A stretch of DNA of 64,000 nucleotides from Candidatus Saccharimonadia bacterium (lineage in GTDB: Bacteria > Patescibacteriota > Saccharimonadia > UBA4664): contig DATKIP010000012.1 of the NCBI GenBank assembly GCA_035544015.1, positions 99,483-163,482 on the forward strand, in the 5' to 3' direction. The translations under genes were made by a program, and so were the position numbers. Numbering within the stretch: the stretch's first letter is position 1; the number at the start of each line of letters is the position of its first letter. Of the stretch, positions 21,070 to 41,175 are shown piece by piece. The notes beneath the pieces were generated by a model. It did no database searches. It saw only the letters and a list, made by a program, of their open reading frames with translations, and had not been told where the DNA came from.

Positions 21070-21447
21070 TGGTGGAGCTGCGGGGAATCGCACCCCGGTC
21101 CGTCGGGTTACTCGCTCGCGATCTACAGGCTTAGTTTGCTTACATGTCTTAGCCCTCCACCTGTGAGCAAACCAAACGGTGGCGGGAGCAGCTTCAAAGC
21201 TTAGCTGAGGGGCAGAAGCCCAACCCTCAGAGCGTCCCGATGATTTGATACCGGCGAACCCCTACCGGGAATCAGGTGCCGATAGCTTACGTTATTAGGC
21301 GTAAGCGGGGGCGAATGAAGGAGCCTGGAAGGCAGCCTTCACCCGCGCGAAAAAGTTGGCAGTTAAGCTAACTTGTGGAAGCTAACGTTTGCCTACGACC
21401 TGCGCGCATAGCTTGTAAAAGTCCCAACGTCGAGCCTGATCAGCCCC
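21070..21447 (-). ncRNA. ssrA: tmRNA (SsrA)
   Basis: The minus strand reads 5'-GGGGCTGATCAGGCTCGACG... with tRNA-like ends (T-arm GGGG-TGCGATT-CCCC, acceptor ...GCAGCTCCACCA-3'). Candidate tag ORF GCA AAC GTT AGC TTC CAC AAG TTA GCT TAA (ANVSFHKLA*). Confidence 0.8.
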
Positions 21448-35979: not shown

Positions 35980-36028
35980 AATCTGTTGTCGCTATTGTAC
36001 ACCGCGCGCTAAAAATAATGGCATTGCC

Positions 36029-36373
36029 AGACTAGTCATAAGCCGGATTCTGTCGAGGATGATCATCTATCTTGGGTCCACGTTGCCGCGAACCTCATGC
36101 GGTCTGATCGCTCAAACGCGCGAGCAGCGCCCCTTTCGGGATGTTTGAGCCGCCTTGCAGCGGACGGGGTTTACCTCCTCGCCTAGTCACCTAGGCCAGC
36201 TGTGCGCTCTTGCCGCACTCGTTTCACCCTTACCGAGCTTGCGCCCGGCGGTATCGTTTCTGTGGCACTTTCCCTACGGTCGCCCGCGGTTGCCGTTAGC
36301 AACCGTCCTGCTCTATGCTGTCCGGACTTTCCTCACCGACCTTGCAGCCGGCGCGATCATCTTCTAGTCTGAC
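36029..36373 (-). ncRNA. rnpB: RNase P RNA (bacterial type A)
   Basis: The minus strand carries GAGGAAAGTCCGGAC (P4 5' strand), GGTAAGGGTGAAACGAGTGCGGCAAGAGCGCACAG (P10-12 region) and ACAGAATCCGGCTTATGACTAGTCT (P4 3' strand/P1). Confidence 0.8.
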
Positions 36374-37723: not shown

Positions 37724-37799
37724 TGGTCGGGGTGACAGGGCTCGAACCTGCGACCTCACGGCCCCCAGCCGTACGCGCTACCAACTGCGCCACACCCCG
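37724..37799 (-). tRNA. tRNA-Pro (GGG), CCA encoded
   Basis: The minus strand CGGGGTGTGGCGCAGTTGGTAGCGCGTACGGCTGGGGGCCGTGAGGTCGCAGGTTCGAGCCCTGTCACCCCGACCA gives a cloverleaf with a CTGGGGG anticodon loop. Confidence 0.85.
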
Positions 37800-38135: not shown

Positions 38136-38537
38136 TTATGCAACTAACCGCACCAGATGGGGCAAAGCCTTTGCCAATTTCTTATCGTATGTAAGCAATG
38201 GCCCGGTTCCATTCAGTTCCGCATAAACCGCCAGCGCAATGTCGATGAACGACACCGCCTTATGATGAACATATACCGGCATAACTTGGGATATCAGGAG
38301 CCGATTACAGGCAATTTGCTCAATCCTCGTAAGCTCGGTGATGAGATCAGCAATTAACCGCCGATCGAATCCATAGGCCGACCCCTGCAAAATCCACACA
38401 CACTCAAACAACACCACATCCTCAACCGTAAATTCACTCCTGCGGCCCTTCGCTACCATCGCCACCGTTGCCGGCGACTGGGCCGGATGATCCTCGAGCA
38501 ACAGCCGCAACACCAGGTTGGTATCAAGTGCGCTCAC
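38136..38537 (-). CDS. vapC: type II toxin VapC (PIN domain)
   Basis: ALDTNLVLRLL N-terminal motif and FIDIALAVYA. 4-nt overlap with the antitoxin. Confidence 0.8.
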   Translation of the reverse strand: MSALDTNLVLRLLLEDHPAQSPATVAMVAKGRRSEFTVEDVVLFECVWILQGSAYGFDRRLIADLITELTRIEQIACNRLLISQVMPVYVHHKAVSFIDIALAVYAELNGTGPLLTYDKKLAKALPHLVRLVA

Positions 38538-38833
38538 TCCGACTCTCGCATTCGCTCTACTCGATAGGCCGCCGCATCGCGATGAGCCTGTAAACGAACC
38601 TCCCTCAGTTCATCATCGGTCTGCGGGAAGGTTCGGTTGGTGCGCTGCATATGCTCTCGCACGCGAGCGTGGAGCGCCGCCAACTCCTTATGCCAATCCG
38701 GCTGCTCAATCGTAGCGATATCCCCGGACAAATCAAAACTCACCGCCTGTCCCGGCTTGAGCCCCAGCTTACGCCGAATCTCGACCGGAATGGTCACCTG
38801 CCCCTTGCTAGTCATGGTAGACGAATACTTCAT
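38534..38833 (-). CDS. vapB: AbrB/MazE/SpoVT-family antitoxin (VapB)
   Basis: TSKGQVTIPVEIRRKLGLKPGQ swapped-hairpin motif. Confidence 0.8.
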   Translation of the reverse strand: MKYSSTMTSKGQVTIPVEIRRKLGLKPGQAVSFDLSGDIATIEQPDWHKELAALHARVREHMQRTNRTFPQTDDELREVRLQAHRDAAAYRVERMRESE

Positions 38834-39310: not shown

Positions 39311-39599
39311 TTACACCCCACTCAATAAATCCTGGCTCCGCGCCACCGCAGCAGCCACCAACTTTTCCCTGCGAATCGCAGGTGGGTGCCCTCAGTCACG
39401 TGGTCCACGGACCCGGACAATCTTAAGCTCCCGTTGGTAGTAGTACAGAGAAAAATTTATGCACCGCATATGCGTATGGTGCAGAGACCTGTTTATTCTA
39501 TAGGCGCACATCGTCCAGATCAATCCAGGCGAGATAGACATTAATGATCATACATTGTATTATTACAAAACCTGAAGTCAGGCGCACCGTTCGGACAGA

Positions 39600-39842
39600 T
39601 TGGAGCACATCATGCTGCTTACGGATATCAAGATCGCGTTCCTCCTGGTCCTCGGCCTCAGCATGGTAGCCGCCGTAGCCTGGGGAACCATACGCGTGAG
39701 GCAGATGTTCCGACAAGGCGAACTCATCCTGGAACTGTCACAGTTCCTCGTGACCAGGAGCAACGGCTGGCTCGACCAAACGATGATCCCGCGGTACAAA
39801 CGCCGCACCGTCATCCTCTTCACCTACCGCTCGACCTACCTA
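39600..39842 (+). pseudogene. N-terminal fragment (81 codons) of a gene split by the IS630 insertion. Its C-terminal 59 codons resume at 40951..41127
   Basis: The ORF stop TAG is the first 3 nt of the IS left inverted repeat. Removing 39843..40950 restores a continuous 140-codon ORF. Confidence 0.55.
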
Positions 39843-40948
39843 TAGCCCTCTCAAAACAAAACCGTCATAAACCATATTTAAACAGCCTTCCGGCAATATA
39901 GCCGGTAAAGGCCTTTTTTGTGTCTTCAAAGGTAGAACGCTGAATATTGGCTACAGCTTGCTTGGTGGTGTTCCAAACATGCTCAATTGGATTGTTGTCA
40001 GGGGCATAGGGCGGCATGGGGATGAGGTGGACCCGCTCCAAGAGTTGGCCTTTGGCTAAGGCTGTTCGAATCGCACGACCTTTGTGGAAGGCGGCATTGT
40101 CCCAGATAATGGCAATCTTCTTGTCTGGGTGGTTTTTCAAGAAGAGCTCGAATGCCTTCAACACCTCTTCCTGGTTTTGCCAGGGCATTTCATACACTTC
40201 GCAGGTGAACGATTTCTGGTTCAAGAACCCGATATAGCTCTGAGCCTCTTTGTCCCGGTCGACTTTGACAATGGTGCGCTTGCCCTTTTTGAGCCAAGCC
40301 CGGCGGGTAATAGCTTCTTGTTCTATCCGGACTTCGTCAACGGCAAACACTTCCCACTCCTTGCTGGTAAGCAGCGGGGCAACTTCAGCATGGATTTCTC
40401 GCATCCGGGCCTCAATCGTAGCCACATTGCGCCTGAGGTCAAAGGTATCCGGGTACTTAAACGACAGATTACTAAACCGTAGGAGGAAATGATATGACTG
40501 CGGAGATTCATACACAATCTCAAACTTGGTCTGGAGGTAGGTTTTGAGCTGGGGTACATCCCAGAAGGCCTGAGGCAAGCCAAAGTCGGAGGGTGGAGAG
40601 CTGAGCGCCTGCTTGACCTCTTGGCGCTGGTCGCGGGTTAGAGGACTGGCGTTGTCATTGCCGGCGTGGCCGGTGAATATCATGCTGAGGCGACTAGTTC
40701 GCCAGGCATTGAGCCAGCTCCCCACGGTTCGTGAGGAGCGGTCTTGGATGTCGCCAATGTCAGCGGATGACATCCCTTTATTCGCCATGAGTACGGCCCC
40801 AGCTTTATATCGTATGAGGATGAGTGGGGAGGTTTTGGCATATTCCTTTAAAAGAATCTTTTCTTCGTTGGTGATATTTGTTTTACGCATTTGCAATTAA
40901 GCGTAACAAAATCTCGAAATAAATGCAGGTTTTGTTTTGAGGGGGCTA
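39843..40948 (-). mobile_element. IS630-family (Tc1/mariner-like) insertion sequence, 1106 bp, with a TA target-site duplication
   Basis: 21-bp terminal inverted repeats TAGCCCTCTCAAAACAAAACC (left) and TAGCCCCCTCAAAACAAAACC (right, reverse complement), 20/21 identical. Flanking TA at 39841-42 and 40949-50. One transposase ORF. Confidence 0.85.
39865..40896 (-). CDS. IS630-family DDE transposase (HTH plus DDE_3)
   Basis: IAIIWDNAAFHKG and PPYAPDNNPIEHVW DDE motifs. Full length, 343 aa. Confidence 0.85.
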   Translation of the reverse strand: MQMRKTNITNEEKILLKEYAKTSPLILIRYKAGAVLMANKGMSSADIGDIQDRSSRTVGSWLNAWRTSRLSMIFTGHAGNDNASPLTRDQRQEVKQALSSPPSDFGLPQAFWDVPQLKTYLQTKFEIVYESPQSYHFLLRFSNLSFKYPDTFDLRRNVATIEARMREIHAEVAPLLTSKEWEVFAVDEVRIEQEAITRRAWLKKGKRTIVKVDRDKEAQSYIGFLNQKSFTCEVYEMPWQNQEEVLKAFELFLKNHPDKKIAIIWDNAAFHKGRAIRTALAKGQLLERVHLIPMPPYAPDNNPIEHVWNTTKQAVANIQRSTFEDTKKAFTGYIAGRLFKYGL

Positions 40949-40950
40949 TA

Positions 40951-41127
40951 CCCGAGCAAGAGGTGCGGCTCCTCCCCCACCCCAATCGCTACGACATCGT
41001 GGTCTTGGTATCCACCGACCGTGCCGATCAGCAATACGCCGACATCCTCCTGGAACAATTCAAGACTGATCACCCGGATGTCAGAATACACCGGCAGCTC
41101 CACGAACCCATTACGCGCGCTCACTAG
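40951..41127 (+). pseudogene. C-terminal fragment of the IS630-disrupted gene
   Basis: In frame with 39600..39842 once the IS and one TA copy are removed. Confidence 0.5.
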
Positions 41128-41175
41128 CTTCAGGCAGAGGCCCCCGGACACCGCGTCCGAGGGCCTCCCGCCGTT

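What the first reader, a model, noticed from the sequence alone, without database searches (positions are those of the whole stretch)
39600..41127. Intact IS630 element with a TA duplication cleanly splits a 140-codon gene that can be reconstructed in silico
The element runs 39843..40948 with 21-bp TIRs (20/21 identical) flanked by TA at both ends. The upstream 81-codon ORF ends with a TAG contributed by the IS terminus. Deleting the IS plus one TA joins it in frame to a 59-codon continuation (40951..41127). Together they give an N-terminally TM-anchored 140-aa protein, MEHIML...RSTYL|PEQEVRLLPHPNRYDIVVLV...ITRAH. The clean target duplication and the full-length transposase suggest a recent, possibly still active, insertion.
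Basis: seen in the sequence. Interest (0 to 1): 0.55.

Follow-up and report, generated by a model that had tools for sequence, protein, structure and literature searches.

The report
IS630 insertion splitting an orphan gene
A small, ordinary jumping gene of the IS630 family sits inside a short unknown gene in a Saccharimonadia (candidate phyla radiation) genome, and identical copies at two or more other places in that genome suggest it moved recently.

Summary
Window 39843..40948 is a 1106-bp IS630-family insertion sequence. It has 21-nt terminal inverted repeats (20/21), a TA on each side and a full-length 341-aa DDE transposase on the minus strand. Removing the element plus one TA fuses a 77-aa ORF (81 aa from the TTG) in frame to 58 more codons.

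1. The element is multi-copy. The same Candidatus Saccharimonadia MAG has at least two more insertion sites whose IS ends are 100% identical. Independent assemblies break exactly k-1 bases into the element. This supports "recent, probably active".

2. Because the element is a repeat, the contig join could have been chimeric. Conserved synteny in four related genomes (L28, M50 protease, 6S RNA, dUTPase/His_Phos/NUDIX) shows that the two flanks really are neighbours.

3. The rebuilt 135/139-aa protein has no homologue in 5.8 billion or 1.84 billion proteins other than its own two halves. Relatives have no gene at that spot. Codon statistics support coding in the fused frame, but the antisense frame of the second half scores equally well.

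So this is a real and clean IS insertion into a lineage-specific ORF that is probably, but not provably, a gene. It is ordinary biology and a new member of a known kind.

The parts
39535..39563 (+). Promoter-like site (TAGACA-17-TATTAT) upstream of the interrupted ORF
   Evidence: Consensus scan, 10 of 12 matches. This is a pattern match only.
39602..39605 (+). GGAG Shine-Dalgarno-like motif 6 nt before ATG 39612
   Evidence: Read directly from the sequence.
39612..39842 (+). 5' part of the interrupted ORF: 77 codons (VMT30_01235 / HVQ43571.1). It begins with a hydrophobic helix at residues 6-24.
   Evidence: ORF list. The codon-usage score of 29.1 is at the median of true genes, and only 2% of wrong-frame windows reach it; GC3 is 0.82. 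Kyte-Doolittle hydropathy is 2.25 over residues 6-24. AF2 is confident only for this helix.
39841..39842 (.). TA target-site duplication, left copy
   Evidence: TA also flanks relatives and the other identical copies.
39843..40948 (-). IS630-family insertion sequence, 1106 bp. Its first three bases, TAG, supply the premature stop of the upstream ORF.
   Evidence: It is identical to the stand-alone 1113-bp contig Ga0307499_10039379, which equals window 39840..40952.
39843..39863 (.). Terminal inverted repeat at the 3' end of the transposase gene (TAGCCCTCTCAAAACAAAACC)
39865..40890 (-). Transposase gene, 341 aa from the ATG (HVQ43572.1). It has an N-terminal HTH and a DDE_3 domain with D185, D264 and E303.
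   Evidence: NF033545 at 180 bits; PF13358 at 5.7e-21; HTH_23. D185, D264 and E303 are invariant in 28 homologues. Nearly all homologues are also 341 aa.
40928..40948 (.). Terminal inverted repeat at the 5' end of the transposase gene (reverse complement TAGCCCCCTCAAAACAAAACC)
40949..40950 (.). TA target-site duplication, right copy
40951..41127 (+). 3' part of the interrupted ORF: 58 codons plus a TAG stop. NCBI annotates the part from GTG 40963 as VMT30_01245 (54 aa).
   Evidence: It joins in frame. The codon score of 20.6 is at the median of true genes. The antisense same-phase frame scores 28.2, and Prodigal-type callers chose that strand.
41137..41167 (.). Strong hairpin between the ORF stop (41127) and the stop of the convergent M50 protease gene (41176). 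It is followed by TTTT on the + strand and is a likely shared terminator.
   Evidence: MFE -30.6 kcal/mol, z = -4.8, with 0 of 200 shuffles folding as well.

Best explanation
An IS630-family insertion sequence (Tc1/mariner-like, DDE transposase) inserted by cut-and-paste at a TA dinucleotide. The TA lies at codon 77/78 of a lineage-specific 135-codon ORF in a Candidatus Saccharimonadia genome, between the 6S RNA gene and the convergent M50 protease gene. The insertion duplicated the TA. The first three bases of the element (TAG) end the N-terminal fragment, so at most a 77-aa membrane-anchored stub can be made, and the C-terminal 58 codons lose their start. The element is one of at least three copies with identical ends in this roughly 1-Mb genome. 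One other copy splits an M50-like metalloprotease paralogue immediately before its HExxH motif. Another sits about 22 nt upstream of a NUDIX-like gene. The element has therefore transposed recently and is probably still competent.

Shown: the element, its ends, the TA, the multi-copy state, the contiguity of the two flanks, and the in-frame restoration.

Inferred: that the restored ORF was an expressed protein-coding gene, and that the transposase is currently active.
For: Family and ends:
- transpos_IS630 at 180 bits and DDE_3.
- TIR 20/21, with 0 matches expected by chance.
- D185, D264 and E303 are invariant across 28 homologues.
- Relatives share the TA|TAGC...CAAAACAAAA ends, with unrelated flanks beyond the TA.

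Multi-copy state:
- JGI contigs L061 and L066 (right ends) and L063 (left end) from sample Ga0307499, plus L070 (left end) from Ga0307500, carry 126 nt of 100%-identical IS end joined to different flanks.
- Their genes carry accessions of the same NCBI MAG as the window: HVQ43570-74, 43908-09, 44374-81 and 44452-56.
- The IS assembles alone as a 1113-bp contig in 3 samples.
- The Logan contig stops 30 nt (k-1) into the shared sequence, and the MEGAHIT contig stops about 140 nt into it, which fits k-1 for k = 141.
- L063 + TA + L061 restores ...VWVVAIMVSVV|AHELAHW..., and the Peptidase_M50 profile match runs across the junction (45.4 bits).

Flank contiguity:
- Four relatives keep L28, M50, 6S RNA, then dUTPase or His_Phos/NUDIX/Bac_transf. 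These are the genes found on the two sides of the IS here.

Gene-likeness:
- Codon scores of both halves in the fused frame sit at the median of true genes.
- There is a promoter-like site, GGAG, an ATG, a TM helix and a shared hairpin terminator.
- In the restored sequence the strongly coding N-part has no stop before 41125.
Against: - No homologue of the restored protein exists in two very large searches.
- Relatives place the 6S RNA 35-76 nt after M50, with no equivalent ORF.
- The antisense same-phase frame of the C-part scores higher (28.2 against 20.6) and is open. ENA and JGI gene calls chose it.
- The AF2 single-sequence model is poor (pLDDT 56), so it gives no evidence that the two halves form one domain.
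- No empty-site sequence was found.
- The complete sequence of the other copies was not seen. Only their terminal 126 nt and the single collapsed IS contig were available.
- It is unexplained why the MEGAHIT contig of the window runs through a repeat that breaks the other contigs.
Confidence: 0.8

Rival explanations
1. The IS insertion is real, but the 'split gene' is not a single gene. The 77-codon ORF may be a short gene or a spurious one, and the right-hand segment may be non-coding or may encode the minus-strand ORF (GTG 41151, about 67 codons in the restored site). In that case the in-frame continuity is a by-product of high GC3: the antisense same-phase frame of a coding region is usually free of stops.
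For: - No homologue exists for either half or for the fusion.
- Relatives have no ORF at this spot.
- The minus-strand frame of the C-part scores 28.2 against 20.6 and has no stop codon.
- Prodigal-type calls in ENA and JGI picked the 84-aa minus-strand ORF.
- Several frames are open across the restored junction.
Against: - The N-part is clearly coding on the + strand: score 29.1, GC3 0.82, and the minus frames contain stops.
- In the restored sequence the N-part has no stop before 41125, so a minus-strand gene would be overlapped antisense along its whole length.
- The minus-strand GTG lies inside the loop of the -30.6 kcal/mol hairpin, just after the M50 stop.
- PGAP chose the + strand.
Confidence: 0.2
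2. Assembly artefact. Because the IS is a multi-copy repeat, the 251-kb contig may have joined the left flank of one copy to the right flank of another, so the 'clean split' would be a chimera.
For: - Three independent assemblies (Logan k=31, JGI k=127, and other contigs of the same MEGAHIT run) break at this IS.
- TA is the same at every copy, so it cannot prove which flanks pair.
Against: - Four related genomes keep the genes of the left flank (6S RNA, dUTPase, His_Phos_1, NUDIX, Bac_transf) next to those of the right flank (M50, L28, Lactamase_B_3).
- The alternative pairings give nonsense: W+L061 stops after 2 codons, and W+L066 runs out of frame through a NUDIX gene.
- L063 pairs best with L061, restoring an M50-like gene.
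Confidence: 0.04
3. The element is an old, fixed and now inactive relic. The insertion would not be recent, and the ORF would have been a pseudogene for a long time.
For: - No empty site was found in JGI contigs.
- The element's GC (about 51%) and GC3 (0.61) differ from the host's (58.6% and 0.70), which says nothing about current activity.
Against: - At least three sites have 100%-identical ends, and a single collapsed 1113-bp IS contig is identical to the window copy.
- The ORF is intact at 341 aa with all catalytic residues.
- Both gene halves are still free of stops and frameshifts and keep typical codon usage.
- The empty-site scan is weak. The collection also failed to return the JGI contigs that must carry this filled junction.
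Confidence: 0.1

Closest known systems
IS630 family insertion sequences (IS630 of Shigella sonnei and relatives; the bacterial branch of the Tc1/mariner superfamily)
   Same: - A single DDE transposase ORF of about 340 aa with an N-terminal HTH and a DDE_3 catalytic domain.
- An element of about 1.1 kb with short terminal inverted repeats.
- Insertion at TA with TA duplication.
- It passes the curated NCBIfam equivalog model.
   Different: - The nearest transposases found are 89% identical and sit on unnamed metagenome contigs. The nearest named ones are about 60-70% identical, in Saccharimonadales and other Patescibacteria MAGs, so it would be a new IS name.
- The sites seen here read C-TA-CC, not the CTAG recalled for IS630 itself. 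That recollection is from memory and was not tested.
- There is no programmed frameshift; the gene is one continuous ORF.
The same IS lineage in other Patescibacteria MAGs (for example L004, L006, L008, L018; Candidatus Moraniibacteriota CP064994.1 carries 3 loci)
   Same: - Conserved TIR core TAG[C/T]nnnnnCAAAACAAAA.
- TA flanks.
- Elements of 1096-1124 bp.
- A 341-aa transposase.
   Different: 58-66% protein identity and different insertion sites.

Membership tests
IS630 family (insertion sequence) | Transposase matches the curated IS630 transposase model above its cutoff | tested here: met
   NF033545 transpos_IS630 (equivalog): 180.4 bits against a cutoff of 100, covering residues 34-329. 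PF13358 DDE_3: 75.4 bits against a cutoff of 28.6.
IS630 family (insertion sequence) | Catalytic D, D, E residues present | tested here: met
   D185 (AVDEV), D264 (WDNAAFH) and E303 (NPIEHVW) are invariant in an alignment of 28 homologues of 60-100% identity. Their assignment as the catalytic triad follows the known Tc1/IS630 motifs and is an inference.
IS630 family (insertion sequence) | Terminal inverted repeats bounding the element | tested here: met
   21-nt TIRs matching 20/21, with 0 chance matches in 100 shuffles. The TIR core is conserved in relatives.
IS630 family (insertion sequence) | Insertion at TA with 2-bp TA target duplication | tested here: met
   TA lies on both sides here. 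It also lies at every junction of the other identical copies that was seen, and on both sides of 11 relatives whose flanks are otherwise unrelated. No empty site is available to prove a duplication rather than terminal TA bases.
IS630 family (insertion sequence) | Size about 1.0-1.4 kb with no passenger genes | tested here: met
   The element is 1106 bp. The transposase occupies 39865-40890, leaving 22 and 58 nt at the ends.
IS630 family (insertion sequence) | Demonstrated transposition | not testable with these tools
   Indirect evidence only: at least 3 insertion sites with identical ends in one MAG.
   Only the two fragments themselves were found, among 5.8e9 clustered proteins and 1.84e9 representatives searched with full HMMER. 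There was no tblastn hit in syntenic relatives.
   Both halves score at the median of true genes in the fused frame, but the antisense frame of the C-part scores higher.

The most novel reading that the evidence does not exclude
This may be an ongoing IS630 expansion in an ultra-small, host-dependent Saccharimonadia genome. The element would be knocking out accessory genes (an orphan membrane protein and an M50 protease paralogue) and would use an extended, orientation-specific target, C-TA-CC. It belongs to an IS lineage that, in the genome scan, is otherwise found almost only in Patescibacteria and in Actinomycetota (Actinomyces, Arachnia, Propionibacterium, Glutamicibacter, Arthrobacter). 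From memory, some of those genera are known hosts of Saccharibacteria, which hints at IS exchange between epibiont and host.
Probability: 0.15. Interest if true: 0.4.

Novelty: new member of a known kind. Interest (0 to 1): 0.17.

Why it matters
By itself it matters little. IS630 elements disrupting hypothetical genes are routine.

It has some value as a marker. A multi-copy, apparently live IS in a reduced roughly 1-Mb CPR genome explains why assemblies of this organism fragment at fixed points. It gives a handle for strain tracking through insertion-site polymorphism. It also documents gene inactivation by IS activity in a lineage usually described as streamlined.

The case also shows that a 'reconstructable' ORF is not proof of a gene. 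Here the reconstruction is clean, yet the protein is an orphan.

Tried and rejected
- Homology for the rebuilt protein: Pfam and NCBIfam gave nothing (one DUF7318 match at E = 0.31). The word-indexed search and full HMMER against 1.84e9 representatives returned only the two fragments.
- Empty-site search: the exact 24-mer TCGACCTACCTACCCGAGCAAGAG gave 0 hits in JGI metagenome contigs. This negative is weak, because the collection also lacks the JGI contigs known to carry this locus.
- TIR pattern in the GTDB representative genomes: 0 hits, so this genome is not in that collection and its copies could not be counted there.
- Look-up of contigs encoding the 54-aa C-fragment: not on record.
- Search for a diverged homologue of the ORF in the M50-to-dUTPase gaps of relatives: none. 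The gaps hold the 6S RNA.
- AF2 of the rebuilt protein, to test whether the halves form one domain: pLDDT 56, uninformative. No fold search was run on it.
- Chimeric-join hypothesis: rejected on synteny.
- Discriminating the L063+L061 pairing from L063+L066 by Pfam score: only a slight preference (45.4 against 42.7 bits). L061 is preferred because it supplies a full TM helix before HExxH, and because the L066 flank is the 5' region of a NUDIX-like gene on the other strand.
- Literature: no paper in the held library deals with IS630 elements in Saccharibacteria or Patescibacteria.

Full report
**1. What is in the sequence**

The window around 39.6-41.2 kb was read directly. An inverted repeat has arms at 39841-39868 and 40923-40950: 28 nt, 89% complementary. 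Its 21-nt core, TAGCCC[T/C]CTCAAAACAAAACC, occurs exactly twice in the 64-kb window, once at each end of the element. None of 100 dinucleotide-preserving shuffles gave a match. The two cores differ at one position, so they match 20/21.

TA lies immediately outside both cores, at 39841-42 and 40949-50. Between the repeats, on the minus strand, a single ORF runs 39865..40896 (343 aa from a TTG, 341 aa from the ATG at 40890). It matches NCBIfam NF033545 'IS630 family transposase' at 180.4 bits against a cutoff of 100. It also matches Pfam DDE_3 (5.7e-21) and has an N-terminal HTH_23. Of roughly 2000 homologues, nearly all of the best 120 are also 341 aa long. D185, D264 and E303 are invariant in an alignment of 28 of them.

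**2. Are the ends and the TA assigned correctly?**

A scan of one genome per GTDB species with a profile of the transposase found 58 loci. In 11 full-length relatives with flanks (L004-L007, L011-L014, L018, L029, L031), the best inverted repeat around the gene always starts TA|TAG[C/T] and contains CAAAACAAAA. Sequence similarity stops at the outer TA. Other insertion sites of the identical element show the same (section 3). The assignment stands. Without an empty site it cannot be formally excluded that the outer TA belongs to the element. The family's known TA duplication, and the fact that the ORF is restored only when one TA is kept, both argue for a duplication.

**3. The element is a multi-copy repeat in this genome**

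The N-terminal fragment is NCBI protein HVQ43571.1 (VMT30_01235) of a 'MAG TPA: Candidatus Saccharimonadia bacterium', on a 251,081-bp contig. Other assemblies break at the element:

- An independent Logan assembly (SRR8863102) has the left flank on a 32-kb contig that ends at window position 39869.
- The element alone forms a 1113-bp contig (Ga0307499_10039379, seen in 3 samples). It is 100% identical to window 39840..40952.
- 39869 is exactly 30 nt (k-1 for k = 31) into that shared stretch. This is the signature of a graph branch at a repeat, not of an empty/filled bubble.

Scanning JGI metagenome contigs for the IS terminus found four long contigs whose last 126 nt are 100% identical to the IS ends but whose flanks differ from the window:

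| Locus | Contig length | IS end | Flank next to the TA |
|---|---|---|---|
| L061 | 52.5 kb | right | TA\|CCACGC |
| L066 | 72.8 kb | right | TA\|CCAGCA |
| L063 | 319 kb | left | ATGAGC\|TA |
| L070 | sample Ga0307500 | left | CCCTGC\|TA |

Exact look-up of genes on L061, L063 and L066 returned NCBI accessions HVQ44452-56, HVQ44374-81 and HVQ43908-09. The window genes are HVQ43570-74. All are named Candidatus Saccharimonadia bacterium, so these contigs belong to the same MAG. The ENA/MEGAHIT version of the 320-kb contig (L079) ends about 140 nt (k-1 for k = 141) into the shared sequence. The genome thus has at least three insertion sites of an element with identical ends. This is good indirect evidence of recent transposition.

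Joining L063 + TA + L061 restores, on the minus strand...LLQVVWVVAIMVSVV|AHELAHWLAYRW.... This is a TM helix followed by HExxH, and the Peptidase_M50 profile match runs across the junction (45.4 bits). A second copy therefore probably interrupts an M50-like protease paralogue. The L066 copy lies about 22 nt upstream of the ATG of a NUDIX-like gene.

**4. Is the contig join across the repeat trustworthy?**

The IS is a repeat and TA is the same at every copy, so the 'clean split' could have been an assembly chimera. I tested this by synteny. The closest homologues of the adjacent M50 protease (80-87% identity) were located on their contigs and scanned with Rfam. All four relatives show L28 (-), M50 (+) and, 35-76 nt further on, a 6S RNA. 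This is followed by dUTPase (L075, L077, and L078 after an EamA gene) or by acetyltransferase, His_Phos_1, NUDIX, deformylase and Bac_transf (L073).

In the window, the genes to the right of the IS are M50, L28 and Lactamase_B_3. To the left are a 6S RNA candidate (39331-39490, minus strand, 40 bits, E = 3.9e-6), dUTPase, His_Phos_1, NUDIX and Bac_transf. The two flanks are therefore ancestral neighbours and the join is correct. Alternative pairings of the window's left flank give nonsense. I cannot explain why MEGAHIT ran through the repeat at this site but not at the others.

**5. Was a real gene split?**

Evidence for a gene:
- The N-part has a codon-usage log-odds of 29.1. This is the median of true-gene windows of that length in this contig, and only 2% of wrong-frame windows reach it. 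Its GC3 is 0.82.
- The C-part in the fused frame scores 20.6, again at the median, with 2% of wrong frames reaching it.
- There is a promoter-like site (39535-63), GGAG 6 nt before the ATG, and a hydrophobic helix at residues 6-24.
- A -30.6 kcal/mol hairpin (z = -4.8) lies 10 nt after the stop, shared with the convergent M50 gene.
- The strongly coding N-part has no stop before 41125 in the restored sequence.

Evidence against:
- The protein has no homologue except its own fragments, in the 5.8e9-protein word-indexed search and in a full HMMER scan of 1.84e9 representatives.
- Pfam and NCBIfam give nothing.
- Relatives have the 6S RNA directly after M50, so there is no room for and no trace of this ORF. 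The roughly 580-bp ORF region is lineage-specific.
- The antisense same-phase frame of the C-part is also open and scores 28.2. PGAP called the + strand (54 aa, VMT30_01245), while the ENA and JGI callers called an 84-aa minus-strand ORF that runs into the IS.
- AF2 without an alignment gives pLDDT 56, with only the TM helix confident.

My reading is that the + strand 135-codon ORF is the more parsimonious interpretation, at about 0.65-0.7. It remains an unverified orphan.

**6. Mechanism**

From established knowledge of the IS630/Tc1 family, a DDE transposase binds the TIRs, excises the element and integrates it at TA. Repair of the staggered cut duplicates the TA. Here the integration put the element's terminal TAG in frame, ending the ORF after codon 77. 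At best the consequence is a truncated membrane stub. The 58 C-terminal codons lack a start, apart from a GTG without an obvious ribosome-binding site.

Both halves still have typical codon usage and no secondary lesions. The IS copies are identical where they can be seen. The transposase is intact. All of this points to a recent event.

**7. Comparison and novelty**

This is a member of the IS630 family by every feature that could be tested. The nearest transposases are 88-89% identical, on unnamed 1.3-kb metagenome contigs. Named relatives are 58-71% identical, in Saccharimonadales, Uhrbacteria, Andersenbacteria, Moraniibacteriota and others. It is a new member of a known kind. No paper in the held library treats IS630 in these phyla.

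The finding is correct but ordinary. The extra points of mild interest are the multi-copy, apparently active state in a reduced CPR genome and the uniform C-TA-CC sites.

Noticed in passing
window 39331-39490 (-): A 6S/SsrS RNA candidate (Rfam RF00013, 40 bits, below the gathering score of 46.4, E = 3.9e-6, full-length model) lies between dUTPase and the split ORF. Syntenic counterparts in relatives score 52.7, 49.5 and 42.3 bits (L073 5458-5616, L075 5702-5863, L078 4725-4884) and always lie 35-76 nt downstream of the M50 protease gene..
   Followed up: partly
L063 7178 / L061 (reverse strand) junction; NCBI VMT30_05440: A second copy of the identical IS in the same MAG appears to split an M50-like metalloprotease paralogue exactly before its HExxH motif (...IMVSVV|AHELAHW...). 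The Pfam M50 match spans the restored junction..
   Followed up: partly
L066 102-150: A third copy of the identical IS ends about 22 nt upstream of the ATG of a NUDIX-like gene, in a 5' regulatory position. Its left-flank partner was not identified in the same sample. L070, from sample Ga0307500, is a candidate..
   Followed up: no
window 39840-39842 / 40949-40952; L061, L063, L066, L070 junctions: Every flank seen next to the identical element reads C-TA on the side of the transposase 3' end and TA-CC on the side of its 5' end. This explains why the collapsed IS contig is 1113 bp rather than 1106 bp. An orientation-specific, non-palindromic extended target would be unusual for a TIR element, but only 3 left and 3 right flanks were seen..
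   Followed up: partly
loci L021-L028, L030, L032, L033, L037, L040-L042, L045, L046, L048, L052-L055, L057-L060: Outside Patescibacteria, the genome scan found this transposase lineage mainly in Actinomycetota, at 37-58% identity: Glutamicibacter, Arthrobacter, Actinomyces dentalis and A. gerencseriae, Arachnia propionica, Propionibacterium, Pseudonocardiaceae and Actinopolyspora. From memory, some of these genera are known hosts of Saccharibacteria. The scan used two peptide motifs, so the distribution is biased..
   Followed up: no
window 38136-38833 (-): A PIN/VapC-like ORF (133 aa) overlaps a MazE/AbrB-type antitoxin ORF (99 aa) by 4 nt. The pair sits between tRNA-Pro (37724-37799) and dUTPase. 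In relatives L077 and L078 the tRNA follows dUTPase after 42-83 nt, so this toxin-antitoxin pair looks like a lineage-specific insertion next to a tRNA gene..
   Followed up: partly
window 36023-36372 (-), 21070-21447 (-): RNase P RNA class A (262 bits) and tmRNA (100.5 bits; tag ANFFARVKAAFQAPSFAPAYA) are present. Three tRNAs are also present: Pro-GGG, Val-GAC and Val-CAC..
   Followed up: no
window 39843-40948 within the 251,081-bp contig: The MEGAHIT contig that contains the window runs straight through the 1106-bp repeat. Other contigs of the same assembly, and the JGI and Logan assemblies, all break k-1 bases into it. The join is correct by synteny, but how the assembler resolved it is unexplained..
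   Followed up: partly
window 40891-41127 (+): A 78-codon ORF starts at a TTG inside the IS right end and reads out of the element, in frame, into the C-terminal gene fragment (MQLSVTKSRNKCRFCFEGAIPEQEVRLL...). It is probably chance, and this exact protein is not in the public collection..
   Followed up: partly
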